Virus record (IMG/VR): IMGVR_UViG_3300029454_000001
Location: 1-64,000 of that record
Direction: 5' to 3' (one strand)
Source of the DNA: a virus
DNA length: 64,000 nucleotides
Numbering within the stretch: the first letter of the stretch is position 1; each line of letters opens with the position of its first letter. Positions 2,893-60,239 of this stretch are shown here, in pieces. The position numbers were made by a program, and so were the translations under genes. The notes beneath the pieces are model-generated. The model did not search any database. It was not told where the DNA came from and worked only from the letters and a program-made list of their open reading frames with translations.

Positions 2893-2921
2893 AATATACC
2901 ACACTTAATGTGCATTGTCAA
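2893..2921 (-). promoter_or_regulatory. Leftward early promoter, TTGACA-17-TATATT with TG extension
   Basis: Minus strand reads TTGACA (2921-2916), a 17-nt spacer, then TGGTATATT (-10 at 2898-2893). Confidence 0.6.
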
Positions 2922-2931
2922 TAACTTTTTG

Positions 2932-2960
2932 TTGACTAAATGTACAAAATATGATATATT
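2932..2960 (+). promoter_or_regulatory. Rightward repressor promoter, TTGACT-17-TATATT
   Basis: TTGACT at 2932-2937, 17-nt spacer, TATATT at 2955-2960. Back-to-back with the leftward promoter, the -35 boxes 10 bp apart. Confidence 0.6.
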
Positions 2961-2979
2961 ATTTTTAGGAGGTGAGAAA

Positions 2980-5557: not shown

Positions 5558-5593
5558 GTATGTTCTCCTTTCATTGTTGAGGTTAAAAAAGTG

Positions 5594-5623
5594 CATAATA
5601 AAAAGCACCCCAAATGGGATGCT
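5594..5623 (-). terminator. Terminator-like hairpin just upstream of the endolysin start
   Basis: Minus strand AGCAUCCC-AUUU-GGGGUGCU followed by UUUUUAUUAU. It lies inside the long form of ORF 4751..5677. Confidence 0.5.
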
Positions 5624-6219
5624 CTTTAACATAAACTTTTTATACAATATACCTACCATGATTAAATTCTCTGTCATAATGACATCACCTCCTTACCACA
5701 AGTATAGCTGTACCGTGATAAGGAGGCTATAATTTCCGCAGCTCTCTAACACATAAAATAGTGAGACCAAAAAATACATTAGCAGAGCTGAATATAAAAA
5801 AACCGAAAATAATCGTACTCTATATCGTATTGCACCAATCGTTTCAGATATTAGCGTATTGTGCATTAATAGAACTGGGCTTTATCTTATAACTCTCGGA
5901 CAAACTGGTGGAGTATTTAATAATGCATCAGTAAAAAAAATATATGAAGGTGGAAAAGATGCCAAAATTCAAATTGGTGAGAATAGAAAAAGTATAATTT
6001 TTGAATGTGATATATATTCCAATCCTATTTTTATTAGTGTTTTTAAATAACCTTGTATAATTATTATTTTAGTAAAGTAATCGTCAGATTGTCGCCTGAT
6101 GATAATACCATTCCATGAAGCCATTCAAGAGATTTGCTTTTAAATGTGACTATTTTAAAATCTGTAGAAACAGATATTAACAGATCATTGTCTTGGAATG
6201 AGTGGAAAAAGCTTGTTTC

Positions 6220-11268: not shown

Positions 11269-11634
11269 TTACCTCTCGATAAAGTCAAAACTAAGTCCTT
11301 CCATGCGCTCATTTCCAGCCCACCAGCACTTAAAGGGTGATTCCCTGTCCCCAACATAAAATGTTCTGGTTTCGTGCTTATTTGCAGATAGCAGGTCTGG
11401 ATATGTGACCTGTATGTACTCTGGGTTTACCGCCTGTATAATCTTGCAAGCAGTGTCCCAGTCTGGGGCATTCCAACCTACAGACAGCTTTCGTTTCTGT
11501 CCAACTCTGTTTTTGTGCATGGTCGTATCGTCTGTTCTGCCGGATTCTGATGCCGATATATCCTGTAATCCCCATGTAAAAGAAGAAGGACAGGGCAATG
11601 CTACCCCATCCACTTTAAGAAATACTTCTGCCAT
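11269..11634 (-). CDS. Small tail component (Dit-position, DUF6711-like)
   Basis: Directly upstream of the Tal-like gene with a 3-nt gap. The pattern LKVDGVALPCPSSFTWGLQDISASESGRTDD..MHKNRVGQKRKL..W matches a siphophage tail family as I recall it. Confidence 0.45.
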   Translation of the reverse strand: MAEVFLKVDGVALPCPSSFTWGLQDISASESGRTDDTTMHKNRVGQKRKLSVGWNAPDWDTACKIIQAVNPEYIQVTYPDLLSANKHETRTFYVGDRESPFKCWWAGNERMEGLSFDFIER

Positions 11635-11677: not shown

Positions 11678-12394
11678 TCAAGCAATCATTTTAGTTGCTT
11701 CACTTTGAACAAATTCTTTAATTTGCTGATATCCCCATCCGCAATTAATAAGGCTGCTTACAAGCATTTCCATATTTTGTACTTTTGCTAAGTCATCACC
11801 TGTGAAGAAATCTCTAAGATTTTCTTTTGCTTTTACCCCATAATCACTTTCAAGCTCTTTGGCTGTTTTTCCGAATAAATTACGATAAATTAAATTTGTG
11901 TAATTTGGATAAGCAAATCTTTTATTTTGGCTTTCCGTTATTTTCATCTTAATTGTATCTGTTAGGATATGTCGAATAACAACACCCTTGTCACGCTCGA
12001 TTTGCCATTGCTGACGTTCTGTATGAATTCTTTTTAATTCAGATTCCATTTTATTAAAAGCGTCAATGTATTTAAGTTTCCACTGTAATGCTTTTTCACC
12101 ATTAAATCCCATGGCTAACAAGGAAAATCCATCTCTTGTTATAAGGTATTCGGTATACTCACGATTGTTTTCTCCGATATAAGAAGTTTTTATAAAATAA
12201 TCAGAAAGGGGGATATCTCCCCTTTGAGAAATCTGTGTTACAAGACCTAAATGTTTGGTTTTACCCTCTGCGTCAACTTGTCCTTCAATTGCCCTTATTA
12301 CTTCCTTGTGCTCTTTTTCGAAAGATTCTGCGATTTTTCTTGACGTAGTAAGTAACTTTTCTTCGTATCTTTTTCCAACGATTTCTACCAGCAT
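11678..12394 (-). CDS. Rha-family phage regulatory protein (paralog 1)
   Basis: TTSRKIAESFEKEHKEVIRAIE..YLITRDGFSLLAMGFNGEKALQWKLKYIDAFNKME is the Phage_pRha pattern. The C-terminus is shared with 20466..21113. Confidence 0.8.
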   Translation of the reverse strand: MLVEIVGKRYEEKLLTTSRKIAESFEKEHKEVIRAIEGQVDAEGKTKHLGLVTQISQRGDIPLSDYFIKTSYIGENNREYTEYLITRDGFSLLAMGFNGEKALQWKLKYIDAFNKMESELKRIHTERQQWQIERDKGVVIRHILTDTIKMKITESQNKRFAYPNYTNLIYRNLFGKTAKELESDYGVKAKENLRDFFTGDDLAKVQNMEMLVSSLINCGWGYQQIKEFVQSEATKMIA

Positions 12395-12429
12395 AAATTC
12401 ATATCTCCTTTATGATTTATTTTTTGGCA

Positions 12430-12464
12430 ACAAAAAAGCGCCTACCCCGAAAGGTAAACGCTTT
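12430..12464 (-). terminator. Rho-independent terminator between the HNH operon and the Rha gene
   Basis: Minus strand AAAGCGUUUACC-UUUCGG-GGUAGGCGCUUU followed by UUUUUUG. Confidence 0.55.
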
Positions 12465-12530
12465 AAAAATTGCTTATTATGATTTTATAGTATAACATAC
12501 GGTGAACGTATCATTCAGTATACTTCGGTA

Positions 12531-12647
12531 TCATTTAAAATTCTTTTCTTTCTCAAAAAGAGTGTGTGCAAATGCATGAATCATTGCAATAAAAGTTATA
12601 TTGTGCATTTTTTCAACCATCTCAATAAGTTCCTCTTTATAATTCAT
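12531..12647 (-). CDS. Possible 38-aa ORF translationally coupled to the HNH gene
   Basis: ATGA overlap with the HNH stop. My translation MNYKEELIEMVEKMHNITFIAMIHAFAHTLFEKEKNFK. Confidence 0.3.
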   Translation of the reverse strand: MNYKEELIEMVEKMHNITFIAMIHAFAHTLFEKEKNFK

Positions 12648-12940
12648 TCCACAATTCCTCCTAACACTCTAATCAACTTCTGTTTGCGGTTATACTTCAA
12701 AATCTCGGAAATCTGCCCCATCATATCATCCATTGTCATGTTGCTCTTCATGCTGTTGCAACGCTTACACGCCAGCTGCAGATTCTTAATATCATTGGTG
12801 CCGCCACGAGACAACGGCATAATGTGGTCGATTGTCATTTTCTTAAATTTGACTGGCTTACCGCATATCGCACATTTTCCGTTGCATTTGGCGTACACAC
12901 TCTTTTTCTGAAAGTCATTGAACTGGATTCTATTTGCCAT
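12644..12940 (-). CDS. HNH endonuclease (98 aa)
   Basis: CNGKCAICGKPV..IDHIMPLSRGGTNDIKNLQLACKRCNSMK. Start moved to the internal Met just downstream of the stop of 12945..13196. Confidence 0.8.
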   Translation of the reverse strand: MANRIQFNDFQKKSVYAKCNGKCAICGKPVKFKKMTIDHIMPLSRGGTNDIKNLQLACKRCNSMKSNMTMDDMMGQISEILKYNRKQKLIRVLGGIVE

Positions 12941-12944
12941 ACGA

Positions 12945-13196
12945 TCACGCTTTCTGCTCCATAGATTCAAGAGCCTTAAATTTCTGTCTTGCTTTATTGG
13001 CATAATCGCTCAAAATCAACAATTTCATTGTCATAAATTGCTTGTTATATGCAAACTGCCATTTTTTCAGTTCGTCCATCTCTTCTGTGCTGTTAAATCC
13101 ATACTGTTCCATGAAATCATCCACAAGAAACTTGATTTTATCAATAGTGTCTTCTACTTCGAACATTGTGTCTTCTCTATCCATATTTTCTGCCAT
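12945..13196 (-). CDS. Hypothetical protein (83 aa)
   Basis: ORF track. RBS CAGGAGGAAAATAAA upstream. Confidence 0.55.
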   Translation of the reverse strand: MAENMDREDTMFEVEDTIDKIKFLVDDFMEQYGFNSTEEMDELKKWQFAYNKQFMTMKLLILSDYANKARQKFKALESMEQKA

Positions 13197-13232
13197 TTTA
13201 TTTTCCTCCTGTGTATCCCTGTAAGAATCTAA

Positions 13233-14054
13233 TTATGCAATTTCTACTCTGTATGCAATCATCATTTCTTTAATCACGCTAACGTAAATATCTTTCAGCC
13301 GCTTATTCTGCATAATCACGGACAGTTTGTTAATCTGGTTGGTCTGTGCCTTGGTGCAGCCTCTTTCTTCGGCTCTGGAAATCGCATTTCTAAGTTGCTG
13401 ATCTAATCGGCAACCAGCTCTGTCTGATAATCTGCGGTAGCTTTCGTTTCTGGCGGCGGCATATTTATTCCCGAATGAGTAAGAGAAATCATCGCTCTCG
13501 GCAATCTTTGAAATACATCTGTTTACCCACTTCTCTGTGCCAACATCGGAATCCGTCCCCTTGAAAGTATCAATGATGGTTTTCATGTTCTTCTCTTGTT
13601 GGTCGGCACGTTCCGCAAGTTTCTTCTGTTCCAGTTCGGTCTTGGCTACCTGTTGGAAAATCTGATTGAACATTTGCAGTTCGGGGGACAATTTAGAATA
13701 ATCAATTACTTGTTGTTTTACCTTTTCTTCAAGTCTAGTAAAATATTCTCTAGCTTCTTCTGCTTTTTCGCTATTACCTTTTACCGATAACTTCTTTGCA
13801 AAATGAGCAGTAATTTTGTAGTCCTTAGTAGCCTGCCCTCCCCATTCGTCATTAATGACGAATGCCCAATAATCAACGTTTTCCTCTGCAAATTCATTTC
13901 CTGTAATGTTGCTTTTGCACCATCTTGAATAATTGCTAGAATCCAATTCTAAAAAGGCATATAACTTTCTGGCAGTAGTCATTCCCTCTTCATCAATACC
14001 AAGTGCGATTTCAATAGGTGTCCGGTTTGCTGTGTTAATTGTGATTTCGTTCAT
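13233..14054 (-). CDS. AntA/AntB-type antirepressor-like protein
   Basis: N-terminus TARKLYAFLELDSSNYSRWCKSNITGNEFAEENVDYWAF fits the AntA domain pattern. Coiled-coil C-terminal half. Confidence 0.7.
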   Translation of the reverse strand: MNEITINTANRTPIEIALGIDEEGMTTARKLYAFLELDSSNYSRWCKSNITGNEFAEENVDYWAFVINDEWGGQATKDYKITAHFAKKLSVKGNSEKAEEAREYFTRLEEKVKQQVIDYSKLSPELQMFNQIFQQVAKTELEQKKLAERADQQEKNMKTIIDTFKGTDSDVGTEKWVNRCISKIAESDDFSYSFGNKYAAARNESYRRLSDRAGCRLDQQLRNAISRAEERGCTKAQTNQINKLSVIMQNKRLKDIYVSVIKEMMIAYRVEIA

Positions 14055-14178
14055 ATAGAAAATCCTCCTGTTGTTAAAAAATCTATTTGCAAACAGGGGA
14101 TATACAGTGTTATAATTTGCATATCCCCTGTAGGGGGTGTTGTATAAGGGACTGTTTCTTTCCTAGGGAGCCAGTTCC

Positions 14179-14361
14179 TTATTTTTCGCCTATTTCATCT
14201 TCTATTAGACCGATTCCTTTCATAATGGTGTCCGTTCTTGAAATTCCAAGTTCTTCTGCACATTTGTCTATGCGTCCTTTTTCTTCTTTTGTAAGACGAA
14301 TATTGAGCTTTTCCTTTCTTGATTCACCATTTACAGGTGGTCTACCTGTTCTTGGGGACAT
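14179..14361 (-). CDS. Ribbon-helix-helix (CopG/Arc-like) protein, 60 aa
   Basis: Internal Met after AAGGAGGTGAACAAA. RTGRPPVNGESRKEKLNIRLTKEEKGRIDKCAEELGISRTDTIMKGI shows a beta-strand plus two helices pattern. Confidence 0.65.
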   Translation of the reverse strand: MSPRTGRPPVNGESRKEKLNIRLTKEEKGRIDKCAEELGISRTDTIMKGIGLIEDEIGEK

Positions 14362-14515
14362 TTTGTTCACCTCCTTATTTTGTCCTTGCATAATTCATTA
14401 TAATTTATGGGCGTACAAAAGTCAAGAGCATTTTCTATTATTTTAGAAAACGTATCAATCAAGGTTCTCGTCATTATGACGAACACCTTTTTTCTAAAAT
14501 TTTAGTGAAACTAGC

Positions 14516-14941
14516 TTCCACAAAATAATGGAGCCGAAATTTCGGCGGCTTGGGGTTCGACATGAACGTCAAGCCCCTGCTCCCCATTTTTGAGGTTCGC
14601 CACAATGGCAAACGTTAAAATTTACGGTTTGCTATAATCCTGGCGTTTCGTGAAAATCACGATTTGAGCCTCGGACAATTTGACTGAAGTGCTAACCGTC
14701 ATCAAATTGATGATAGTTCAAAATATCAATCATAGAAATAGGGTGCATCAAATTAGAAGCACCCCTATTAAAAATAAAAGGTGTCGAAATTTCTACGCCT
14801 TTTCGCCATGTATGGCTAAAACCCATATAAGCTGCTCAAATTTGTGCACCTTGTATGAATAAACAGTTTGCCATAGTAACGAAAGGTCAATTTGTCCGTT
14901 CGCTTCTCATGGCGAAAAACAGCTCCATAAATTTGTGGAAC
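14516..14941. repeat. Noncoding block bounded by about 20-bp imperfect inverted repeats and packed with AAATTT-centred palindromes
   Basis: Left end GCTTCCACAAAATAATGGAGC and right end GCTCCATAAATTTGTGGAACAGC. Internal palindromes GCCGAAATTTCGGC, CGTGAAAATCACG, CATCAAATTGATG. Pair GGACAATTTGAC / GTCAATTTGTCC. No credible ORF. Confidence 0.4.
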
Positions 14942-15075
14942 AGCTATTAACCGTCTTGAAATTCACGACAGTTTTTTTTACTGACGAATCGTTATTTTTT
15001 TAAATTTCCTATTCCCTTATCCATTTTGGAGTGGTAAAATACAGATATCATACTGATTTAGGGAGGAAAACGCAT

Positions 15076-15972
15076 ATGAAAAAATCAAAAAAGCTACTGG
15101 CAATTTTTACCATAATGTTACTGATTGTCTGTATGGCAGTTCCAGTATCGGCGGCCGGTAAAATTAACAAGAAAGAAGCCACTTTAAAAGTCGGGCAAAC
15201 ATTACAATTAAAAGTGACTGGAACAAAAAGAAAAGTAAAATGGACAAGTAGCAAGAAGTCTGTTGCAACGGTATCTTCTAAAGGACGAGTAAAAGCTAAG
15301 AAAAAAGGATCCGCAACGATTACTGCAAAGGTCGGCAAAAAGAAATACACTTGTAAAGTTACCGTGAAAAAGGTTTCTAACGGCAATGGTGGTTTTGGAG
15401 GAAATCCTAGCACTAACAGTAGCGGTAAGAAGAATATTGTTACATATCATGCAGAATCTACACCGTATGGAGCGGTGGCAATTCTTGAAAATCATTATGA
15501 TTATGCAGTACGTGTTAGAGTTGAGTTTGTTTATTTTTTGAATGGTTCTATGATTGGAACAGATTCTGATAGTATATACGCTTTTGCTCCACATTCAAAA
15601 TGTGCGCTTCAAGGTTGGAACGCTGACAAGACCTGGGATTCTTTCAAAGTTAATTTAAAAATTGAAAAAGCTTCTTCGAGCCTTATTTTGAACAATTCCG
15701 GAATACACTATTCAGCTAATTTTGGAGCTGGAAATGTTATGGTAAAAGTAACTAATAATGGAAAAAGAAACTCTTACACAACTATTGCAGTCGTATTTTA
15801 CAAAGATGGAAGAATAGTTGGATATGATTATCAATTTGCTCACGTTGAAAATCCTGGTTCAACTGCTTATCTTGAATTTAGATTCCCTCACGATAGGAAT
15901 TACGATACAATAACGCCAGATAAATTTGAAGTATATGTTAATGATTCTTACACATATAATTGGATGAACTAA
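15076..15972 (+). CDS. Secreted protein with Big_2 (bacterial Ig-like) domain and an unknown C-terminal domain
   Basis: Signal peptide MKKSKKLLAIFTIMLLIVCMAVPVSAAG. Big_2 pattern ATLKVGQTLQLKVTGTKRKVKWTSSKKSVATVSSKGRVKAKKKGSATITAKV. Plus strand, moron-like. Confidence 0.75.
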   Translation: MKKSKKLLAIFTIMLLIVCMAVPVSAAGKINKKEATLKVGQTLQLKVTGTKRKVKWTSSKKSVATVSSKGRVKAKKKGSATITAKVGKKKYTCKVTVKKVSNGNGGFGGNPSTNSSGKKNIVTYHAESTPYGAVAILENHYDYAVRVRVEFVYFLNGSMIGTDSDSIYAFAPHSKCALQGWNADKTWDSFKVNLKIEKASSSLILNNSGIHYSANFGAGNVMVKVTNNGKRNSYTTIAVVFYKDGRIVGYDYQFAHVENPGSTAYLEFRFPHDRNYDTITPDKFEVYVNDSYTYNWMN

Positions 15973-15978
15973 AATAAA

Positions 15979-16000
15979 GGCTAGGGAGAAATCCCTAGCC
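15979..16000. terminator. Bidirectional terminator hairpin between convergent genes
   Basis: GGCTAGGGA-GAAA-TCCCTAGCC, a 9-bp stem between the stops at 15972 and 16009. Confidence 0.7.
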
Positions 16001-16008
16001 TAATCATT

Positions 16009-16935
16009 TTAATACCCTACTTGAGTGACCCCATACTCTGCCTGTTCAGAAGTAAAGCCATCAAATTCCAATTGCTGAATTAGCCCATCTCTTGAAAAAC
16101 TTGTAATATCCAAATAACTTTTAGCAGATTTTTCAGCTTGTCTATTCCAACTTGCGCCACAAAAGTCTGCTGCATATTTAGCTTCTTCATCTGTATATTG
16201 TGAAAATTTCAGTTGTTGAATTATTCCATTATAAGAAAACGAATTTATATCTAAATAGTCTATAGCTTCTTTCAGCGCATTTTTCTTTCCAAGCGGTACT
16301 TGTGGTGCATCTTCGCATTTTGAGATAGCGCAATCATATATATAATCTTGCGTAGAAATTGAATCTGGTTTTAAAAATATTCCCTCAACAGTAACGTAAT
16401 CTCCCACCTGTAGTTTTAATACATTTGAGTTGTTGCTTCTTACGAACATTGCAAATTCATCATATCCTGTATATGTTATAGAATTATCAATTGAAATTTC
16501 AACACGATATGCGCCAGCCTTATTAACACTATTTGCTTGCCATTCTTGTTCTGTCGGAAGCTCTATGGTCTGTAACACATATCCATTTATTTTTACCTTG
16601 TCTCCCATTGAAAAGTCTGGATAATCATTAATTTTTTCTGAATATATTTCTTTGATTACATCTTCGTAGTGGATTTCTGTATCCGCAGAATCATCAGAAT
16701 CTCCAAATATCTCTGAATGGCTCATTTTATAAGTTTTCAATTCCAAATCTTCCCACAAATCCTTGCATACAGAAAATACCGCTTCTGTTTCTTCTTCTGT
16801 TGCTGGTTCTATTTGTGTTGTTTCTTTAGTTTCTTCCTTCTGTCCGATTTCCCACTTAAACGCCATGACAGGTGTCGTAGTCACCAAACTCGCCATCACG
16901 GTTGCAGCAACAATAACTCTTTTTACTTTCTTCAT
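16009..16935 (-). CDS. Ltp-like surface protein (superinfection exclusion family) with signal peptide and two C-terminal Ltp repeats
   Basis: C-terminus NALKEAIDYLDINSFSYNGIIQQLKFSQYTDEEAKYAADFCGASWNRQAEKSAKSYLDITSFSRDGLIQQLEFDGFTSEQAEYGV matches the two-repeat Lipoprotein_Ltp pattern of phage TP-J34 Ltp. N-terminal signal peptide without a lipobox Cys. Confidence 0.75.
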   Translation of the reverse strand: MKKVKRVIVAATVMASLVTTTPVMAFKWEIGQKEETKETTQIEPATEEETEAVFSVCKDLWEDLELKTYKMSHSEIFGDSDDSADTEIHYEDVIKEIYSEKINDYPDFSMGDKVKINGYVLQTIELPTEQEWQANSVNKAGAYRVEISIDNSITYTGYDEFAMFVRSNNSNVLKLQVGDYVTVEGIFLKPDSISTQDYIYDCAISKCEDAPQVPLGKKNALKEAIDYLDINSFSYNGIIQQLKFSQYTDEEAKYAADFCGASWNRQAEKSAKSYLDITSFSRDGLIQQLEFDGFTSEQAEYGVTQVGY

Positions 16936-16998
16936 ACATACGTACCTCCCAATAATTGATACCCATATTGTACCACCTTGGGACGTATTCTGGAAGTC

Positions 16999-17223
16999 CT
17001 ATTTCGCTTTTCTATCAATTTCCGCAGTTACGGCAAACAAAAGAGCTTCGGCAAATTTCGCGCCGACCGAATCGGAGTATTTATCGTGAATCCGGCTTGC
17101 TTCCATGGTGAGATTTTCCCACTGCGGAATATCATCCTTTGAGATAAAGGCGTACTTCTTGTGGAGATTCCATATATCTTGCCAGATGGAAAAATAAGTC
17201 TGCTTGAAATTCATCAATACCAC
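16999..17223 (-). CDS. Hypothetical protein (74 aa)
   Basis: ORF track. 10-nt overlap with the upstream gene. Confidence 0.5.
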   Translation of the reverse strand: MVLMNFKQTYFSIWQDIWNLHKKYAFISKDDIPQWENLTMEASRIHDKYSDSVGAKFAEALLFAVTAEIDRKAK

Positions 17224-17546
17224 TTCTCCGTCAGTTGATTAATCGGTGTTCCGGCAACTCCGGCACTTTCTCCGCTGTCTGTTGCCTTGAAGTATGCTCC
17301 TTGAATCTGCGGATACATAAACTCAAACATTAGATAATTAGCAGCGTCACAAAGATATTCTGTATTTCCGGTCTTTCTGTATTTTTCAATGCACAAATCA
17401 TGTGATTCCAATGCATTAACCAGTTTCTCCCCGAAATTATCCTTTGCTGTGCCATATTTGTAAAAACTCATCTCAGCCCGATTTTGACGCAATTTATCAA
17501 AACGGTCTGAATATTCTGTTGGAAGTTCTGTTCCTATTTTGCTCAT
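17214..17546 (-). CDS. Hypothetical protein, possibly dATP/dGTP diphosphohydrolase N-domain-like
   Basis: FYKYGTAKDNFGE..KTGNTEYLCDAANYLMFEF resembles a MazG-related phage family from memory only. Confidence 0.45.
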   Translation of the reverse strand: MSKIGTELPTEYSDRFDKLRQNRAEMSFYKYGTAKDNFGEKLVNALESHDLCIEKYRKTGNTEYLCDAANYLMFEFMYPQIQGAYFKATDSGESAGVAGTPINQLTEKWY

Positions 17547-17665
17547 ATGTTTTAATTCTCCACAATTAATTAATTTCTTGGCTCAAATTTCAATTTTCTT
17601 GGCTTGTGCCTATATTTTATCTGGCAAGAGGTTTTGAAACGTATTTGGTTATTTTATCATGTCAA

Positions 17666-18109
17666 TTAATTACCCTCATATGTCTCATAATCAATCGTTC
17701 CAAGATCACCGTACACATCTGGATAATAAATTCCAATCCAGAAGTTATCTTCCATTGCTTTGTAGTAAGTTACTTTTACATTCCATCTCTGTACCTCGTC
17801 AATAATTTCTTTGTTGAGAAGTCCGAATTGATCTCGGCAAGCTTCACTTTCCAGTTTGTAAGTCAATGCTTTGTATTTCTCGGCATTTGCCTGTCTGGTG
17901 GCGGTAATATTGGTTTGAGTAAGTAGTAAAATCAATCCAGCTACCAGGAACCATACTGCACCGATAAAAGAAATTACCACGCCAAAAGACAATATAAAGC
18001 CACTCACATTTGAATACTCATATTCGTAGCTTAAAGATTCGCCTATTCTATTTGCAATCAGAATAGCAACGCCGACCGCAAAAATGATTACTGATAGCCA
18101 AAATATCAT
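17666..18109 (-). CDS. Membrane protein (3 predicted TM segments plus a soluble C-terminal domain)
   Basis: Hydrophobic stretches IFWLSVIIFAVGVAILIA, GFILSFGVVISFIGAVWFLVAGLILLL. Confidence 0.6.
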   Translation of the reverse strand: MIFWLSVIIFAVGVAILIANRIGESLSYEYEYSNVSGFILSFGVVISFIGAVWFLVAGLILLLTQTNITATRQANAEKYKALTYKLESEACRDQFGLLNKEIIDEVQRWNVKVTYYKAMEDNFWIGIYYPDVYGDLGTIDYETYEGN

Positions 18110-19170
18110 AGTGTGTCCTCCCTGTCCTCAACTTTCATTAACAAATTTTTCCGTATGTAGCCAGACATGAAATGCGAATAATGATGATCCGTGTACTCAC
18201 TAAATGAAGTTCCAAAGTATTCATCAATCACTTTCATGTATGTTTCAATCTCAACATTCTGGAAATAATCTGGATTTGGCCCGAATCCAAACTTGTCCAG
18301 GATATTATCCAAAGCGTCTTGATTAATTTTTATGTGCGGTTTTCTGGTTCGTTCTTCGTACCTCTTGAAGAAATACTTTGATACTACCAGGAAGCGGTTG
18401 GTTGTATATGGGCTTGTCGTATATCCCAATTCTTCAATACGCACTGCAACCTGGTTCTTGAATGCAGACCAATTAAAAGATTTACGGTCTATTGGAGTAT
18501 ACTGGATGCTTTCTTCTGTCAACATATTTTTGATATGTTGAGAATTGAACCACTCGTTAGAGTGGTATGCATTTTTCTCTTCTTCTTTTAACTCCGTAGG
18601 AGATGTAGTATCTGGTTTATCATTAATATCTGAAATATAATCTCTGTTTGTAGTTTCTGGTATTGCTTGACGGTTTGAATCGTATTGATCGTTCATGAGT
18701 GCTTCATTCATTGCGCACTCATGCGCATTGGAAAAATCATCTGGCAAATTAATTTTGTAATCGCTTAAAGGATAACCTTTTTCTTTAAGTGCTTTTGCTA
18801 TATTTACAAGGCTAACGCGATATTGTAAAGTTCTGTCCCATTTGTATTTTGGGTTATTTCTTTTTGAAATAAAGCCCATATTAACCAGTTCATTGATATA
18901 CCGCCTTACTTGGCTCACAGATAAGCCAAGCATGATTTCATTGGATAGTTCTTCTGCTGTTTTGTATATCCAGCCATAAAATAATTCCTTTTCTTCTTCT
19001 CCATTTTTTCGTGCGATTTCATTTTCTTTTTCAATGAATTTATCTGCATCGGAAACTCTTTCAGACCAATAAATAAATTGTTTTAATATGATTGCTTTAC
19101 GAAAATCTCCTGTAATAGCAAGCAAATCTTCACGCAAAACTACTTTTTTAATTTTCTCCATCTTATTCAC
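18106..19170 (-). CDS. Winged-helix replication-initiator-like protein (RepA_N / replisome-organizer style)
   Basis: FIYWSERV..GWIYKTAEELSNEIMLGLSVSQVRRYINELVNMGFISKRNNPKYKWDRTLQYRV is a wHTH pattern typical of Firmicute plasmid and phage initiators. Confidence 0.55.
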   Translation of the reverse strand: MNKMEKIKKVVLREDLLAITGDFRKAIILKQFIYWSERVSDADKFIEKENEIARKNGEEEKELFYGWIYKTAEELSNEIMLGLSVSQVRRYINELVNMGFISKRNNPKYKWDRTLQYRVSLVNIAKALKEKGYPLSDYKINLPDDFSNAHECAMNEALMNDQYDSNRQAIPETTNRDYISDINDKPDTTSPTELKEEEKNAYHSNEWFNSQHIKNMLTEESIQYTPIDRKSFNWSAFKNQVAVRIEELGYTTSPYTTNRFLVVSKYFFKRYEERTRKPHIKINQDALDNILDKFGFGPNPDYFQNVEIETYMKVIDEYFGTSFSEYTDHHYSHFMSGYIRKNLLMKVEDREDTL

Positions 19171-19951
19171 CTGCCGCTCTGTCTAATTTATCGTGAAATT
19201 TTCTATGGCAATTTTCGCATAACACTATGAGATCGTTATCTGCAACTGATCTCATATGTTCTCGTCCGTGATTTTCATATGTTTTATGGTGGACATTAAG
19301 TTTTCCACTCTTTCCGCATAGCTGGCAACGGTAATTTGCGCTTTTTAATTTATAATTCCTAACGCCATCCCAATACGGTGTATGTAAAAAATCGTTATAA
19401 TCCATATTGCTAATCTCTTTGCATATTTCGTCTTGATCTGGGTTAGTTCCATATTTTTGATACATGATATAGTTAATTTTGTCTTTTGCAGATACTCCAT
19501 CTCTAAAGCAAGCTTTAGGATTTAAATACTCCTTGTATCTGAGAGTAAGATTTGCAAGTTCCTCTTTTCTTTCTTTTTCCCATTTTTCATGAGATATTGA
19601 TTGTTTGATCTTTATTTGCTTCTGATATTCTGTCTCACATTCTTCGCATCTGAAATACTCGTTATTAGTGTCTTTATTATTGATACATTTAATCATATTT
19701 AAAATTCTAGTTTTAGAAATCATCCGAGTATATATTTTCCCGCAAATAGGACATTTTATTTGATATTCATATAAAACCTTATCTGTGGGAGTTAAGTTAT
19801 CATATCTATAAAATGCATTAGTGATTTCTGTTGTTTTTGCATTCATCAGAATTTTTGTAAGTTCAAAGTCGATAAGATCTCCACGTTTTATTAAATTGTC
19901 ATTTTTTCGGATATCAGAAAAGACTACATTTTTGATAAATTCTTTGTTCAT
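19163..19951 (-). CDS. Zinc-ribbon-rich protein with C-terminal HNH nuclease motif
   Basis: CPICGK..C..CEECE zinc knuckles, and YRCQLCGKSGKLNVHHKTYENHG..LIVLCENCHRKFH. Confidence 0.7.
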   Translation of the reverse strand: MNKEFIKNVVFSDIRKNDNLIKRGDLIDFELTKILMNAKTTEITNAFYRYDNLTPTDKVLYEYQIKCPICGKIYTRMISKTRILNMIKCINNKDTNNEYFRCEECETEYQKQIKIKQSISHEKWEKERKEELANLTLRYKEYLNPKACFRDGVSAKDKINYIMYQKYGTNPDQDEICKEISNMDYNDFLHTPYWDGVRNYKLKSANYRCQLCGKSGKLNVHHKTYENHGREHMRSVADNDLIVLCENCHRKFHDKLDRAAGE

Positions 19952-20082
19952 ATAGATAACCTCCGTATTGGTTGTTGGCGTACCATGAACCGCCAGAATC
20001 CGTAATTATAAAACAGTGGACAGGCGTATTACGGTTTACGCTTTTCGGCGGCCAACCTAGCCCACTGGTTTTACCGAATTAA

Positions 20083-20379
20083 TTAATCAAACATTTTGAA
20101 TGTTTCCTTGCAAAATTCCTCATAATCGGTTTTTCCGACCAGTGGCATTTTATTCCTCAGTTTTTCCATGGCTCTAAAAAACTTGCCTTGGTCTTTATTC
20201 CAGATTTTACAGGAAATTAGAAGATACTTCTCTTCTGTATGTCCAAATTCTTTTCCGAAATTCACTCTAATTTTCTCATTTTTAAAAAGTTGGTCTGCCA
20301 GATACTCTTCTGTATCTGCGAAAATGTATTCGCTACGGAATAAATGTTTTTGAATTAAGATGTAATTTTTATATGACAT
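20083..20379 (-). CDS. Hypothetical protein (98 aa)
   Basis: ORF track. RBS AAGGGAGGAATATC upstream. Confidence 0.55.
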   Translation of the reverse strand: MSYKNYILIQKHLFRSEYIFADTEEYLADQLFKNEKIRVNFGKEFGHTEEKYLLISCKIWNKDQGKFFRAMEKLRNKMPLVGKTDYEEFCKETFKMFD

Positions 20380-20465
20380 GATATTCCTCCCTTTGAAAAA
20401 GGTTCCATTTTAAATCGAACCTTTCCAGACCTCATTTTAAATGCGGGCTGTCTAAAAATTCAAAA

Positions 20466-21113
20466 TCATGCGGCAATTTTATTAATTCCTTTATTCAGAA
20501 TAAATTCTTTAATTTCGTTATATCCCCAGCCGTATCCAACCAATGCACTTACAAGCATTTCGGCGTTCTGGACTTTCACCAACTCTTCTTCTGAAAAATA
20601 ATCTCTCATACTTTCTTTCTTGGAAATTCCAAATTCATCTCTCAGTTGCTTGGCGTTTTTGCCAAATATGGACTTGTAAATAACGTCCGTATATGTAGAA
20701 TAGGCATGTCCGTGCATTCTTTCATTTTCAGAAGATTGCTGGATTGCCTTGGTAAACGCTTGCCTTACTGCAATTCCTTTTTCACGTTCTTTGATTTTTC
20801 CAATAAGGAGCTTTTCCATTGCATTGAACTGCCGAATATAGCCCTCTTTGAATTTCATTGCTTTTTCGCCAGTATAGCCCATAGCTAAAAGTGTAAATCC
20901 ATCTCTGGTTACATAGTACATTGGCTGTTTCTTATTTTGACAATTGACGTAAGAGGACTGCACGAAATTGTGCCTTCTAAAATCCTCACTGCATTCAAGT
21001 TCTCTTATATCTTGCAAAACCCTTTTATGTTCTTTCTCAAATGTCTCCGCAATATCTAGGCTTGTTACAATACTGGTTTCTACTTTTCCAATCATCATAA
21101 CTTCTACCAACAT
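20466..21113 (-). CDS. Rha-family phage regulatory protein (paralog 2)
   Basis: Internal Met after AAGGAGGAATGGAGA. TSLDIAETFEKEHKRVLQDIRE..YYVTRDGFTLLAMGYTGEKAMKFKEGYIRQFNAME. Collinear with 11678..12394 along its whole length. Confidence 0.8.
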   Translation of the reverse strand: MLVEVMMIGKVETSIVTSLDIAETFEKEHKRVLQDIRELECSEDFRRHNFVQSSYVNCQNKKQPMYYVTRDGFTLLAMGYTGEKAMKFKEGYIRQFNAMEKLLIGKIKEREKGIAVRQAFTKAIQQSSENERMHGHAYSTYTDVIYKSIFGKNAKQLRDEFGISKKESMRDYFSEEELVKVQNAEMLVSALVGYGWGYNEIKEFILNKGINKIAA

Positions 21114-21140
21114 TCTCCATTCCTCCTTATATTGATGGAT

Positions 21141-21214
21141 AAAATAAAAAAGAGCCGCCAAGTAAGATAAAAATTCCTCAAAATCGAGAAATATTAATTT
21201 CTTCTTAGCGGCTC
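21141..21214 (-). terminator. Leader terminator / attenuator upstream of Rha paralog 2
   Basis: Minus strand GAGCCGC..(50 nt containing the inner hairpin AGAAAT-TAAT-ATTTCT)..GCGGCUC followed by UUUUUUAUUUU. Alternative pairing of AUUUCUUC with GAAGAAAU is possible. Confidence 0.45.
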
Positions 21215-21250
21215 AAAAATCAAGACCGTGTGTACTTCTTCATTGAAGAA

Positions 21251-21272
21251 ATTATACCACACAATCAGTCAA
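21251..21272 (-). promoter_or_regulatory. Extended -10 promoter (TGGTATAAT) immediately after the tape measure stop
   Basis: Minus strand TTGACTGATTGTGTGGTATAAT. The TTGACT is only 10 nt from the -10, so only the extended -10 is credible. Confidence 0.4.
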
Positions 21273-21275
21273 AAA

Positions 21276-24200
21276 TCAATATGCCGGGGACGGTTTGAAA
21301 CGGCTATCCGTATCGTTCTGTGCTTTTGTTACTGCTTTTGCAATCTCGCTTCCGTCCAGAATAATGCTGTTCATAATGTACTGCGGATTGTTATTTCCGC
21401 TGTTCATGCTCATTGCCATTGCAACTCCCTGGGCTACTGCTTTTGTCATTTCTTCTTTTGTAAGTCCCATGCTTCCGTCCGAACTGGAAACAATGCTGTC
21501 TGCAATCTTCTTCATGGTTCGTGGATTTTCCAAAGGAAGGACGGCTTCAGAACCAGCTTCACCGATACCAATTACCTGTGCGCCATTGAAAAGACCACCT
21601 TTGGCATACCAATTTGGATAATACCAATTAGGACTATATACAGGAGTGGAACTAGTCTTTCCTCCTCCAAGATTGTGTTTTTTCCACTCAGAAATTTTGT
21701 ATGACAGCGTTGGAAAGCTAACGAGCTTCATCCCATTGACATAAGATTGTGCCGCTTGCTGACCAGCAGAGGTTAGATCAACACTAAATAAGCCTTTTAT
21801 TTTATCGGAAATTCCAGATAGGTTATTTTCTGTATAGGTCTTCATTTTTTGAGTCTCGGTGTCAACTTTACCAGAAGCCTTTTCCCAAATCTGGTTTGTA
21901 TTGATAAGAACGGAAGACCAATAGCTTTGAATGGTTGTCATAACTTTACCCATTACATCTTTTGTATCGGTGTCCATTGTTCCGAGGGCTGTCGATACAG
22001 CACTTGCGGAATTTCCCCAGTTTGTTTTTGAATCAGAACTAATATTTTCTGTGGAAGTTTTTACTTTTGTCTGTGCGGCAGACATAGCTTTCTCAGTTGC
22101 TGTTTGAATTCCAGACATTGCAGTTCCTGTAGCTTTGGATATGCTTCCCATTCCAGTTTTTACAAAAGTATTTGTACTGCTGATAGAGGTTTTCGTCTTA
22201 GTTTCCATCTCTTTCACGGAATCTGGGAATACTTGTGCAAAAATCTTTGCTACAGATTCTGTATTGATTCCGAGTTCCTTGGCGCGCGCCATGATATTAT
22301 CAAATGCATCCTGTGCAGTGCCACCAGAATTTTCAGCTTCCATTAATGCTGTATCAAGAGAAACCATTTCATCTGCGCTAAGTCCTAACTGTGTTTGCAA
22401 TTGTGGAAGAACAGTGTCATACAAATCATCAATCGACTGTTTACTAAGGTCAATACTTCCAGACATATTTGTTGTTTTATCATCCAATGTTTTAATAGAA
22501 TCAGACAATATTTTAAACATGTCGTCCGTAATAAGACCTTTCTGGTTTAATTGAGAAAATGCTTGCTCTGCCTGGTCAGATGTAACCCCCATTTCTCCCA
22601 ACTTGTCAATCAATTTTTGTGTTGCTTTTGCCTTATCCTCGGCGGTCATCCCTTCTTGCTCAAGGCTTTCTTTTAACTGCCAAATTTCCTCTGCTGATCC
22701 AGAAAGAATATCACCTCTTCTCTGTAAAGTTTGAATGAAGTTATTCATGGTATTGCCGAATGTGGTTCCAACACCATTACCGCCTTGCATGGTTTCAACA
22801 AGACCAGCCAATTGAGAGGTTGCGCCAGCTGCAGCTACTCCTACTGCCACGATAAGTCCAGCTTCACCTACAAGAGGGCCAAGTGCTTTAGTAAGAGAGC
22901 CAAATTTACTGCTTGAAGAACCTGCCGCATCCCCTAAATCTTTTATTGCTTCTTTTGCTCCACTTGTGCCATCTCCAAGGACATCTGCTAATTTTTCAGC
23001 AATCATTTCAGCGTTTTTCTTTTCAGCTATTTTACTCGCAATATGTCCCACAAGTGAACCAACAAGAGTACTGATACCTGTGATATTTGCTATTTTTACT
23101 GCAATAAAGGCTTTTCCAAGAATATCAACAAGACTTCCAACAAGCGGATGGTTTTCTTTTATTCCGTCCACTAATCCGTTAAATGCATCTGATAAACCAC
23201 CAAGAATCAAATCAGCTGCTGTACTAAGGATTTCACCCCATGGCAATTCACCAAGGAATGTTCCAACTCCTTGTCCGAACTCATAGAATGTGTCTGTAGT
23301 GAGAGAATCTTTTAATGCGGTACACAGGTGAGATATAAAATCTCCAAGAGCCTGTCCATTTTCTTTCCAGTTTGTTTCTTTGATGAATTTAGCGATTCCA
23401 TCTCTTATCTTGGTTGCGAGATCATCCCAATTAAATGTTTCGGTAAATGATTTTAAGCTTTCGAACGCTCCGTTTAATAAACCAGAAAGTGCATCTGCAA
23501 TTGTGTTCATGTCTATCTTTTTTATTGCACCATTTAAGGCTTTTCCAATAGCAGTGCCAAGCTTACCCCATCCAGTAATTCCAGCACCATCCTTTTTAGA
23601 CATATCCTTTACAAAGCCAGAAAGCATTTTCCAAGATGCCATAAAACTGTTCCCAATTAAGTTTCCAAGACCTGTCCAGTCAATTTCCTTTATAGCACCT
23701 TTTAAAAGTTGAGACAGTTTTGCCCCTATTCCGGAAAAATCTATTCCTCCATCTCCAAGCAACAGGTTTAGAGTATTTACTGCTGTGTTAATTCCAGCTC
23801 CAAGCAATCTTCCCATTAAGTCAAAATCTATACCGCTAACCATGGAATTGAATGCCGTGGTAAATGCATTTACAAATTCGGTTATTTTCGGGCCAACATT
23901 ATTCCAATTAATAACTTCGTATATTTTTTGCATTCCAACATTTATCATATCTGCAATAGTAAAGCCTAGTCCCTGCCAGTCTTTATTGATAAATGCTTTT
24001 CTGATTTTAGCAGCCCATTTATTGATTGGTGTTTCGTCAACAGTCAAAACTTCATCCAGTGAATCTTGTATTCCAGCAAAACTATCTGCTAAATCTCCAA
24101 GTCCAGAACCAAGACTTTTAGATTCAGTTCCAGAATTATCGGAATTATCTGTAAGCTGATTTAATTGGTCGAATGGCAATACAGAAAGTGCCTTTTTTAA

Positions 24201-60196: not shown

Positions 60197-60239
60197 TAAT
60201 GTAATTGCCTCCTCCAATTCCTGGATTTTTCAAAAGTGT

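What the first reader, a model, noticed from the sequence alone, without database searches (positions are those of the whole stretch)
11678..21275. 9.6-kb self-contained accessory island inserted between the tape measure and the tail-tip genes, bracketed by two Rha paralogs
In siphoviruses the tail-tip genes follow the TMP directly. Here the TMP stop at 21276 is followed by an extended -10 promoter and a leader terminator. Then come Rha paralog 2, a Zn-ribbon/HNH protein, a wHTH Rep-like initiator, a membrane protein, small genes, an Ltp-type superinfection exclusion protein, an oppositely oriented secreted Big_2 protein, a 600-bp hairpin-dense noncoding block, an RHH protein, an AntA antirepressor, an HNH nuclease, a terminator and Rha paralog 1. 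The tail genes resume at 11634. The two Rha genes are collinear over their full length but diverged, so this is not a recent duplication. A replication initiator, regulators (Rha, AntA, RHH), nucleases and exclusion genes with their own promoter look like a hitchhiking element inside a phage. It could be satellite-like or plasmid-like, or a defence/moron island. I did not find flanking direct repeats.
Basis: partly seen in the sequence, partly recalled or inferred. Interest (0 to 1): 0.65.

Follow-up and report, generated by a model that had tools for sequence, protein, structure and literature searches.

The report
Hypervariable accessory bay splitting phage tail genes
A common human-gut temperate phage carries, between its tape-measure gene and its tail-tip genes, a 5.5 to over 10 kb swap-in bay of antirepressor, exclusion and surface-protein genes that differs in almost every relative; it is a fixed variable region of the phage rather than a hitchhiking element.

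Summary
In Enterococcus phiFL3A, Lactobacillus Lj965 and an 85-kb sister gut phage, the DUF6711 homologue starts 10-18 bp after the tape-measure gene, so this is an interruption.

It is not a one-off insertion or a satellite. All 57 close relatives measured have 5.5-9.8 kb at this junction, and six more have over 10 kb. Gene slots keep one order but alleles are swapped: 45 architectures in 48 complete loci. There is no recombinase, flanking repeat or iteron array, and no presence/absence as a unit.

Both edges are conserved promoter-plus-hairpin cassettes. The right one is one of three copies of a late-region cassette, so the tail-tip genes probably restart on their own.

The closest known analogue is the variable immI/sieA region inside the P22 late operon: an RHH-controlled antirepressor plus exclusion-type genes and morons.

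Two RNA-level features are unexplained: a covarying int-alpA-like motif and an extremely structured 600-nt block. I file it as a new variant of a known kind, of moderate interest.

The parts
21276..25967 (-). Tape-measure protein gene (left flank, not part of the island)
   Evidence: phrog_1535 TMP E 6e-92 and phrog_167. Its last codons are conserved in all relatives.
21145..21279 (-). Left boundary cassette. Extended -10 promoter (TTGATT-17-TGgTATAAT, 21279-21251) followed by a long hairpin GAGCCGC..GCGGCTC and a T-run (about 21214-21145).
   Evidence: -32.9 kcal/mol, z -6.0. It is conserved in every relative whatever gene follows.
20466..21113 (-). Rha paralog 2 (probable true start 21113, 215 aa)
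   Evidence: Phage_pRha 1e-32. 40% identical to Rha1. Called as 215 aa in relatives. In relatives this slot alternatively holds T5orf172/MUG113, AntA, HNH-type or other genes.
20083..20379 (-). 98-aa ORF of unknown function
   Evidence: No Pfam, PHROG or PADLOC match. A copy at 90% identity or more is present in 21 of 47 complete relatives.
20000..20067 (-). int-alpA-like structured RNA motif (RF02996). A three-way junction closed by an 8-bp stem followed by a U-run.
   Evidence: 49 bits against a gathering score of 35.8, E 7e-8. Relatives score 45-54 bits, one with two copies. Compensatory changes occur in the stems.
19163..19951 (-). Zn-ribbon/HNH nuclease-like protein, 262 aa
   Evidence: Pfam HNH 22.0 bits against a cutoff of 21.4. 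The C-terminal CxxC..HH..CxxCH motif is visible. Rare: present in 5 of 47 relatives.
18106..19170 (-). wHTH 'Rep-like' protein. The N-terminal DNA-binding half is swapped among relatives and the C-terminal half is nearly invariant.
   Evidence: Weak Pfam HTH_24 and RP-C; PHROG DnaD-like and O-like initiators 1e-13..1e-6. The alternative allele in relatives is PF13730 HTH_36. Domain swap shown. The N-domain family has 1619 representatives, one fused to DnaA_N. The AF2 model is of low confidence.
17666..18109 (-). Membrane protein, 147 aa, two N-terminal hydrophobic helices
   Evidence: Sequence. Weak phrog_944 'membrane protein'.
17214..17546 (-). 110-aa ORF of unknown function
   Evidence: No family match.
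16999..17223 (-). 71-74-aa ORF, the anchor gene of the island
   Evidence: Present in 47 of 47 complete relatives, at 90% identity or more in 44. No family match.
16009..16935 (-). Secreted protein with two C-terminal Ltp repeats (candidate superinfection exclusion)
   Evidence: Lipoprotein_Ltp 1e-24; phrog_4980 'superinfection exclusion' 3.5e-27. Signal peptide without a lipobox Cys. In relatives the slot alternatively holds other secreted or membrane proteins.
15978..16001 (.). Bidirectional terminator between the Ltp-type gene and Big_2
   Evidence: 10-bp stem with 6 GC pairs and T-runs on both strands.
15076..15972 (+). Secreted Big_2 protein on the opposite strand, moron-like, with its own extended -10 (about 15032-15040)
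   Evidence: Big_2 3.5e-12. True start, RBS and signal peptide. Variable alleles or an alternative secreted protein in relatives.
14426..15030 (.). Hairpin-dense conserved noncoding block. About 10 imperfect palindromes, each centred on AAATTT.
   Evidence: z -6.6 and -9.55. 6 of the window's 10 strong AATT-centred palindromes lie here. Conserved at 75-95% identity in about 30 loci. The exact core was found only in this lineage.
14397..14425 (-). Near-consensus sigma-70 promoter of the RHH-AntA operon (TTGACT-17-TATAAT)
   Evidence: 11 of 12 matches. The promoter sequence switches together with the RHH allele in relatives.
14179..14361 (-). Ribbon-helix-helix repressor-like protein, 60 aa
   Evidence: phrog_876 'transcriptional repressor' 6.5e-12. 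RHH_1 and NikA-like below cutoff. At least 5 alternative RHH alleles in relatives.
13233..14054 (-). AntA-type antirepressor
   Evidence: AntA 6.5e-13; phrog_373 anti-repressor 4.5e-38. Alternative Bro-N+ORF6C or ORF6N alleles occupy this slot in relatives.
12945..13196 (-). 83-aa ORF between AntA and HNH
   Evidence: Called in relatives. No family match.
12644..13003 (-). HNH endonuclease, 119 aa, second anchor gene
   Evidence: HNH 6e-17. Present at 90% identity or more in 46 of 47 relatives.
12531..12647 (-). 38-aa ORF whose ATG overlaps the HNH stop (ATGA)
   Evidence: Sequence. Called as 33-38 aa in relatives.
12430..12532 (-). Right boundary cassette A: GATACcgaaGTATACtgaatGATAC, then the extended -10 TGtTATACT, then a 13-bp hairpin and T6.
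   Evidence: z -4.0. Conserved in all relatives directly before Rha1 or, where Rha1 is absent, directly before DUF6711. The two other window copies are at 28240-28264 and 39895-39919.
11678..12394 (-). Rha paralog 1
   Evidence: Phage_pRha 3e-28. Present, replaced by a 76% allele, or absent in relatives.
11269..11634 (-). DUF6711 tail gene (right flank), which normally abuts the TMP gene
   Evidence: DUF6711 5e-7; phrog_1194 1e-36. It directly follows the TMP gene in phiFL3A, Lj965 and L085.
6742..11265 (-). 1507-aa tail protein (right flank)
   Evidence: phrog_6616 'tail protein' 2e-202.

Best explanation
The region is a lineage-fixed, hypervariable accessory bay of a temperate siphophage of gut Firmicutes, probably Lachnospiraceae or Blautia-like. 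It is not an autonomous element. It sits at the TMP|DUF6711 junction and is bounded by two conserved promoter-plus-hairpin cassettes.

Between the cassettes, genes occupy fixed slots. The alleles in those slots are exchanged among co-circulating relatives by recombination at conserved linkers: the two cassettes, the 71-aa anchor ORF, the HNH gene and the int-alpA-like RNA.

Functionally it combines four things:
1. A secondary-immunity module. A near-consensus promoter drives a small RHH repressor and then an AntA-type antirepressor. Extra Rha-type regulators lie at both ends.
2. Cell-envelope proteins likely to be expressed from the prophage. These are an Ltp-repeat secreted protein, a membrane protein and an oppositely oriented Big_2 moron with its own promoter and a bidirectional terminator. 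They are candidates for superinfection exclusion or surface modification.
3. Selfish or nuclease-type genes (HNH, Zn-HNH; in relatives T5orf172 and TnpB).
4. A wHTH initiator-like protein of unproven role.

The tail-tip genes downstream stay expressible because cassette A is one of three copies of a late-region cassette. Cassette A probably restarts, or licenses, late transcription just upstream of Rha1/DUF6711.

Shown: position, boundaries, slot mosaicism, domain content, promoter and terminator sequences, the empty site in a sister phage.

Inferred: which genes are expressed in the lysogen, antirepressor and exclusion activities, and the role of the cassettes.
For: **The interruption is real**
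- The canonical order TMP, DUF6711, large tail protein, with 10-18 bp gaps, is seen in phiFL3A, Lj965 and the 84.7-kb sister gut phage MT835477.

**Fixed locus, variable content**
- 184 IMG/VR contigs encode a relative of the DUF6711 protein; the 80 best, which were fetched, are 97-100% identical.
- In the 57 loci where both flanks are visible, the gap is 5.5-9.8 kb (median 8.4 kb) and never empty.
- There are 45 distinct architectures in 48 complete loci. The anchors are o74 (47 of 47) and HNH (46 of 47). All other genes are present, replaced or absent.
- Independent gene calls with precomputed Pfam annotation show the same picture.

**Conserved boundaries**
- Both boundary cassettes are conserved whatever lies next to them.
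- The cassette motif occurs 3 times in the window. All copies are intergenic, on the coding strand, in the late region, and each is followed by a -10-like element and a hairpin with a T-run.
- A DUF1492 protein (LtrB late-activator family) is encoded right beside copy C (PMC3753634).

**Secondary immunity**
- The primary switch lies elsewhere: an HTH_3 CI-like gene at 2908-3336 and a Bro-N/ANT antirepressor at 1428-2198.
- In the island, the promoter, RHH and AntA are arranged in series.
- There are several RHH alleles, and the promoter sequence changes together with the RHH allele.

**Moron features**
- Big_2 lies on the opposite strand with its own -10, RBS and signal peptide, and is followed by a bidirectional terminator.

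**Precedent**
Against: - No expression data exist. Every activity (antirepression, exclusion, cassette function) is inferred from domains and sequence signals.
- The generic promoter scan finds no more hits than shuffled sequence does (40 found against 41 expected). Only the individual near-consensus, conserved sites carry weight.
- The RHH Pfam hits are below their cutoffs.
- The Ltp-type protein lacks the lipobox of true Ltp.
- PADLOC finds no known defence system.
- A Rep-like protein, two HNH genes and a 600-nt structured block are not explained by an immI-plus-moron model.
- The relatives fetched are all very close (DUF6711 97-100% identical), so 'never empty' covers one lineage only.
Confidence: 0.6

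Rival explanations
1. A hitchhiking mobile element (satellite-like or plasmid-like) with its own initiator and regulators has integrated into the phage between the TMP and tail-tip genes.
For: - A wHTH protein gives weak matches to O-like and DnaD-like initiators, and its N-domain family includes a DnaA_N fusion.
- The island has its own promoter and regulators.
- A sister phage has an empty site.
- GC content dips to 0.31 at 19-20 kb.
Against: - There is no integrase or recombinase, no flanking repeats and no iterons.
- The region is never absent as a unit in 57 relatives; variation is slot by slot.
- The Rep-like gene is missing in 27 of 47 relatives, and the hairpin block does not co-occur with it.
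- The boundaries are phage regulatory cassettes, one of them repeated elsewhere in the late region.
- No capsid-hijack or packaging genes are present.
Confidence: 0.05
2. A defence/counter-defence hotspot. The variable genes (nucleases, T5orf172, Rha C-terminal domains, envelope proteins) mainly serve inter-phage and phage-host conflict rather than immunity control.
For: - The gene content is highly variable.
- HNH, Zn-HNH, T5orf172/MUG113 and TnpB occur among the alleles.
- The Rha1 C-terminus hits the PADLOC candidate PDC-S22 at 2e-12.
- Ltp-domain and other envelope proteins are present.
- The phage carries anti-defence genes elsewhere (Tad8).
Against: - No complete known defence system is detected.
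- The most constant theme is the RHH-plus-antirepressor pair.
- Most genes have no known function.
- This reading overlaps with the best explanation rather than excluding it.
Confidence: 0.2
3. A mosaic created and maintained by selfish homing-type endonuclease genes (HNH, Zn-HNH, GIY-YIG/T5orf172). The other genes are passengers carried along by repair-associated co-conversion.
For: - There are two HNH genes in the window. One of them is nearly universal and sits next to the right boundary.
- Alternative HNH and T5orf172 genes occupy slot 1 in relatives.
- Allele boundaries at conserved linkers are sharp.
Against: - The universal HNH shows no presence/absence polymorphism of the kind expected for an actively homing gene.
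- The slots far from the nucleases are just as variable.
- No target sites have been identified.
Confidence: 0.1

Closest known systems
P22 immI/sieA variable region (mnt-arc-ant plus sieA, between genes 16 and 9)
   Same: - It lies inside the late structural operon but is transcribed largely on its own.
- It is very variable among relatives.
- Small RHH repressor(s) control an antirepressor, with an exclusion gene next door (PMC8022706).
- Here the equivalent is promoter, RHH, AntA, Ltp-repeat and membrane proteins, while the primary CI-type switch lies elsewhere in the genome.
   Different: - The host phage is a Firmicute siphovirus, not an enterobacterial podovirus.
- The site is TMP|DUF6711.
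- The region is 5.5 to over 10 kb with about 17 genes, against about 2-3 kb in P22.
- No sequence homology to Arc, Mnt or Ant was tested or shown.
- Extra components are present: Rha paralogs, HNH genes, a wHTH initiator-like protein, an int-alpA-like RNA and a 600-nt structured block.
- There is no divergent mnt-like gene.
Morons of lambdoid phages (for example in the HK97/HK022 tail regions)
   Same: They are independent transcription units with their own promoter and terminator, inserted between late genes and variably present (PMC3594210 abstract). Big_2 fits this description.
   Different: This is not a single gene but a multi-slot bay with a conserved backbone. It splits the TMP gene from the gene that normally abuts it.
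Ltp superinfection-exclusion lipoprotein of S. thermophilus phage TP-J34
   Same: Two C-terminal Ltp repeat domains are present (86.8 bits). Ltp is expressed from the prophage and blocks DNA injection, and TMP has been reported as its target (PMC3952083 and its reference to Bebeacua 2013).
   Different: The protein has no lipobox cysteine, has a long unrelated N-terminal part, and is encoded next to the TMP gene rather than in the lysogeny module.
PeSL mobile regulatory cassettes of T4-type phages (from memory: Arbiol et al. 2010)
   Same: Short conserved promoter-plus-stem-loop units flank hyperplastic regions and could serve as recombination linkers. Here the equivalents are the left cassette and cassette A.
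   Different: This is a temperate Firmicute phage. The cassette motif GATAC-N4-GTATAC-N5-GATAC is specific to this lineage, and its copies sit before late-gene blocks. Function is untested.
Phage satellites (PICI, P4-like) and the defence hotspots of P2/P4 (from memory: Rousset et al. 2022)
   Same: Variable accessory cargo is held at a fixed position between conserved genes.
   Different: There is no integrase, no att sites and no packaging hijack. No known defence system is detected.

Membership tests
immI-type secondary immunity region (P22) | Located inside the late operon between structural genes and variable among relatives | tested here: met
   The definition is taken from PMC8022706.
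immI-type secondary immunity region (P22) | Antirepressor gene preceded by small RHH repressor gene(s) and a strong promoter | tested here: met
   TTGACT-17-TATAAT, then a 60-aa RHH, then AntA. Met at domain and sequence-signal level only.
immI-type secondary immunity region (P22) | The antirepressor inactivates the primary (CI-type) repressor, and the RHH represses the ant promoter | not testable with these tools
   Needs genetics or biochemistry. A CI-like HTH_3 gene exists at 2908-3336.
immI-type secondary immunity region (P22) | Homology to P22 Arc, Mnt or Ant | not tested
   No P22 sequences were compared. The analogy is architectural.
Moron | Own promoter and terminator, inserted between late genes, variably present | tested here: met
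   Big_2: extended -10, RBS, bidirectional terminator, opposite strand. Alleles are present, replaced or absent in relatives.
Moron | Expressed from the repressed prophage | not testable with these tools
   No transcript data.
Phage satellite / integrative hitchhiker | Integrase or other recombinase, and att-type flanking repeats | tested here: not met
   No recombinase domain is found in any island ORF. The only repeats are those of the Rha paralogy.
Phage satellite / integrative hitchhiker | Present or absent as a unit among otherwise identical helpers | tested here: not met
   Never absent in 57 relatives. Variation is per slot.
Plasmid-like or secondary replicon | Bona fide replication initiator | tested here: inconclusive
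   Only weak wHTH, RP-C and O-like matches. One family member carries DnaA_N. There is no PDB sequence hit. The AF2 model has pLDDT 46.
Plasmid-like or secondary replicon | Cognate origin (iterons or AT-rich region) linked to the initiator | tested here: not met
   No repeat array at 17.5-20.1 kb. The hairpin block occurs with and without Rep alleles.
Ltp superinfection exclusion lipoprotein | Ltp repeat domain(s) | tested here: met
   PF07553 86.8 bits, 2 repeats.
Ltp superinfection exclusion lipoprotein | Lipoprotein signal peptide with a lipobox Cys | tested here: not met
   The N-terminus is MKKVKRVIVAATVMASLVTTTPVMAFKWE, with no Cys.
int-alpA RNA (RF02996) | Score at or above the Rfam gathering threshold, with the consensus three-way structure | tested here: met
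   49 bits against 35.8. 45-54 bits in 4 relatives. Compensatory changes are seen.
int-alpA RNA (RF02996) | Usual context next to integrase or alpA genes in Proteobacteria (from memory) | tested here: not met
   Here it lies between small ORFs and HNH or wHTH genes in a Firmicute-type phage.
Known anti-phage defence systems (PADLOC) | Match to the component proteins of a system | tested here: not met
   Only generic HNH similarity and one candidate single-gene hit (PDC-S22) to the Rha1 C-terminus.

The most novel reading that the evidence does not exclude
The 600-nt hairpin-dense block (14426-15030) is a new large structured RNA, or an RNA-based immunity element that governs the adjacent RHH-antirepressor operon. 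The precedents would be the c4 and CI RNAs of P1 and P4 (from memory). Together with the int-alpA-like leader and the repeated promoter-hairpin cassettes, it would form an insulation system that lets a very abundant gut phage carry a plug-in accessory bay in the middle of its tail operon.
Probability: 0.15. Interest if true: 0.7.

Novelty: new variant of a known kind. Interest (0 to 1): 0.42.

Why it matters
This phage lineage is common in human gut metagenomes. The exact DUF6711 protein occurs on 146 contigs and its 90% cluster has 764 members. IMG/VR holds 184 contigs encoding a relative.

The bay is this lineage's main site of gene-content diversity in the stretch examined. It probably decides which related phages can induce, exclude or coexist with one another, and what the lysogen displays on its surface.

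It also shows that the normally tight TMP-to-tail-tip junction can tolerate 5.5 to over 10 kb of foreign DNA when the downstream genes have their own regulatory cassette. That is useful both for annotating siphophage tail modules and for choosing a payload site when engineering such phages.

Tried and rejected
- **PDB sequence searches.** DUF6711 and the Rep-like protein gave nothing; Zn-HNH gave only E 0.1.
- **AlphaFold2 of the Rep-like protein.** With a 10-sequence alignment the model had pLDDT 46, so I did not run a fold search.
- **Rep-like protein against the phage's own DnaD-like organizer** (59288-60217). No similarity.
- **Iteron and k-mer search** around the Rep-like gene and at the boundaries. 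Nothing beyond AT-rich words.
- **RNAalifold on the structured block.** I used 13 and then 31 variants. The relatives are too similar, and they differ by non-homologous segment swaps, so the covariation is uninterpretable and neither strand is favoured.
- **The block in the sister phage and the Blautia MAG.** No equivalent.
- **Rfam at E up to 1.** No known large RNA (ROOL, GOLLD and so on) in the island.
- **PADLOC.** No defence system.
- **Host identification.** The genome-contig scan gave one Blautia MAG at 81% identity. The cluster and contig look-ups carried no organism names.
- **INPHARED.** No cultured phage carries the island. Only Rha-domain similarity was found, the best being Blautia phage Montmirail.
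- **Assembly artefact.** Rejected, because the layout recurs on contigs from many independent samples and sources.

Full report
**What is there**

The window is most of a temperate siphophage genome of about 80 kb, almost all of it on the - strand.
- Terminase, portal and major capsid genes lie at 36-42 kb, and a large serine integrase at 56-58 kb. A DnaD-like replisome organizer lies at 59.3-60.2 kb.
- A CI-type HTH_3 gene, a Bro-N/ANT antirepressor, a LytTR regulator and an Amidase_2/CW_7 endolysin lie at 1.4-5.7 kb.
- The 1563-aa ORF at 21276-25967 is a tape-measure protein (phrog_1535, E 6e-92).
- ORF 11269-11634 is a DUF6711/phrog_1194 protein, and 6742-11265 is a 1507-aa tail protein (phrog_6616, E 2e-202).
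Pfam and PHROGs confirm the domain calls. Gene starts are corrected and two small ORFs added in the observation check.

**Is it an interruption?**

Yes.
- In Enterococcus phage phiFL3A the order is gp56 (TMP), gp57 (the DUF6711 homologue) and gp58 (tail protein), with a 10-bp gap between the first two.
- In Lactobacillus prophage Lj965 the gap is 17 bp.
- MT835477 is an 84.7-kb human-gut phage whose DUF6711 protein is 79% identical. There the TMP gene (16107-19970) is followed 16 bp later by DUF6711 (19986-20354) and then the tail protein. This is an empty site in a sister lineage.

**Is it a one-off insertion or a mobile element?**

No.
- IMG/VR holds 184 contigs that encode a relative of the DUF6711 protein; the 80 best are 97-100% identical.
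- In the 80 loci I fetched, every one has accessory DNA upstream of DUF6711.
- In the 57 loci where the end of the TMP gene is also visible, the gap is 5.5-9.8 kb with a median of 8.4 kb. In six more the gap exceeds the 10-kb flank.
- Clustering all ORFs shows a conserved order of slots with alternative occupants, giving 45 different architectures among 48 complete loci.
- The 71-aa ORF (47 of 47) and the 119-aa HNH (46 of 47) are anchors.
- Rha2, o98, Zn-HNH, the Rep-like protein, the membrane protein, Ltp, Big_2, RHH, AntA and Rha1 are each present, replaced by a divergent or unrelated allele, or absent.
- Independent gene calls with precomputed Pfam annotation on 14 further contigs agree. 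They name the alternatives:
  - T5orf172/MUG113 or AntA in slot 1;
  - HTH_36 alleles of the Rep-like protein;
  - a DUF5052 lipoprotein and DUF1653;
  - Zn-ribbon membrane proteins and a 633-aa Big_2 protein;
  - Bro-N+ORF6C or ORF6N antirepressors;
  - NikA-like RHH proteins.
- TnpB is inserted in three loci.
- A Blautia MAG prophage (DUF6711 81% identical) has a different 5.5-kb island at the same junction with the same themes. It carries a membrane protein, two RHH proteins, a Bro-N/ORF6C antirepressor and a wHTH protein.
- The window island has no recombinase, no flanking repeats beyond the Rha paralogy and no iterons.
- The Rep-like gene is missing in 27 of 47 relatives.

**Boundaries**

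- *Left.* The 150 nt after the TMP stop codon are conserved in all relatives, whatever gene follows. They hold an extended -10 promoter, then a long hairpin and a T-run (z -6.0).
- *Right.* A roughly 100-nt cassette is conserved in all relatives. It lies directly before Rha1 or, where Rha1 is missing, directly before the DUF6711 start codon. Its parts, in order, are:
  - GATACcgaaGTATACtgaatGATAC;
  - TGtTATACT;
  - a 13-bp hairpin and T6.
- *Other copies.* The cassette motif has exactly three copies in the window, where 0.67 are expected by chance. All are intergenic and on the coding strand: before Rha1 and the tail-tip genes, before the tail-tube block (28240-28264) and before the portal gene (39895-39919). 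Each is followed by a -10-like element and a hairpin with a T-run.
- *Possible activator.* The gene just upstream of the portal copy encodes a DUF1492 protein (27 bits against a cutoff of 21.5). That family is LtrB, one of the late-gene activator families of Gram-positive phages (PMC3753634).
- *Inference.* The cassettes are late control sites, and cassette A restores tail-tip expression downstream of the bay. This is inference, not demonstration.

**What the bay does (inferred)**

The clearest module is a near-consensus promoter (TTGACT-17-TATAAT, 14425-14397), a 60-aa RHH and an AntA antirepressor.
- Relatives carry at least five other RHH alleles, and the promoter sequence changes together with the RHH allele. 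That is what an immunity-specificity determinant would look like.
- The primary CI-type switch and a canonical Bro-N/ANT antirepressor lie elsewhere in the genome, so this would be a second immunity system.

A second theme is envelope proteins.
- An Ltp-repeat secreted protein lacks a lipobox.
- A membrane protein is present.
- A Big_2 gene lies on the opposite strand with its own promoter, RBS and signal peptide, followed by a bidirectional terminator.
- Alternative secreted or lipoproteins occupy these slots in relatives.
- Ltp of TP-J34 is a prophage-expressed injection blocker whose reported target is the TMP (PMC3952083). The TMP of these phages is itself highly variable, at 42-98% identity.

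PADLOC finds no known defence system.

[quoted passage not shown] **The Rep-like protein**

- Its C-terminal half is nearly invariant across alleles, while the N-terminal wHTH half is swapped.
- The N-domain family is large, with 1619 representatives. Of ten members scanned, one carries a DnaA_N domain and the rest have no annotation.
- The AF2 model was too poor to use.
- An initiator-like role is possible but unproven, and no origin is linked to the gene.

**RNA-level features**

- *The int-alpA match.* An Rfam int-alpA match lies at 20000-20067(-), with 49 bits against a gathering score of 35.8. It recurs in relatives at 45-54 bits, once in two copies. It shows compensatory changes in all three stems. 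It ends in a U-run and precedes the HNH and wHTH genes, so it may be a leader or attenuator.
- *The structured block.* The 600-nt block at 14426-15030 folds far better than shuffled sequence on both strands (z -6.6 and -9.55).
  - It contains 6 of the window's 10 strong AATT-centred palindromes.
  - It is conserved in about 30 loci and its core was found only in this lineage.
  - It travels with two RHH alleles plus AntA, not with any Rep allele.
  - Covariation analysis was inconclusive.
  - Whether it is a large RNA, an operator array or something else remains open.

**Verdict**

The 'hitchhiker' reading is not supported. The region is a fixed, insulated, hypervariable accessory and secondary-immunity bay. 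It is a new variant of a known kind, with two unexplained RNA-level features that deserve follow-up.

Noticed in passing
window 12508-12532, 28240-28264, 39895-39919 (all - strand): Three copies of GATAC-N4-GTATAC-TGAA-N2-ATAC. Each is followed by a -10-like element and a hairpin with a T-run, and they precede the tail-tip, tail-tube and portal gene blocks. They may be late promoters or antitermination sites. None is found in the sister phage L085 or in the Blautia MAG L092.
   Followed up: partly
window 39918-40340 (-): A 140-aa DUF1492 (LtrB-type late activator) protein with weak Phage_antitermQ and Sigma70_r4 matches. It is encoded between the large terminase and portal genes rather than upstream of terS, directly beside one cassette copy.
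   Followed up: partly
window 20000-20067 (-); L012 2014-2086; L037 2762-2834 and 3349-3418: The Rfam int-alpA motif occurs in a Firmicute-type gut phage, scores above the gathering threshold in several relatives and shows compensatory changes. From memory, the family was described next to integrase and alpA genes in Proteobacteria.
   Followed up: partly
window 14426-15030: A 600-nt noncoding block with extreme predicted structure and about 10 palindromes centred on AAATTT. It is specific to this lineage and linked to the RHH-AntA module. Its nature is unknown.
   Followed up: partly
window 43237-43521 (-): A 94-aa protein matches Tad8, a type II Thoeris inhibitor (PF25189, E 2.6e-30). This anti-defence gene lies just upstream of the packaging genes.
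   Followed up: no
window 45542-48427 and 45673-47124 (-): Four to five tRNA genes (Ser, 2 Met, Gln and one weaker Rfam hit) surround a 483-aa phrog_850 'RNA-binding protein'. A weak RNA-ligase-like ORF lies at 42653-43240. Together they may form a tRNA-repair or counter-defence module.
   Followed up: no
window 27472-27702 (-): A Phage_r1t_holin family gene (E 8e-13) sits among the tail genes, just upstream of the major tail protein gene and far from the endolysin at 4751-5677.
   Followed up: no
window 29214-31265 (-): A 683-aa protein in the head-tail connector region has a pectinesterase-like stretch (E 5.6e-8) and no PHROG match.
   Followed up: no
L149-L153, about 16100-17100 (between the tail/holin genes and the amidase): Some relatives carry a 333-aa tyrosine integrase inserted just before the endolysin gene. 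The window lacks it and has only the serine integrase at 56285-58054. This is a second variable site.
   Followed up: no
L005 3179-4342; also L042 and L072: A 387-aa TnpB/IS605-OrfB-type protein is inserted after the Rep-like gene inside the island in three relatives.
   Followed up: no
window 21276-25967 compared with loci L003-L082: The TMP is strongly mosaic among phages whose DUF6711 protein is 97-100% identical (best TMP segments 42-98% identical). This could reflect an arms race with Ltp-type exclusion proteins, which are reported to target the TMP.
   Followed up: no
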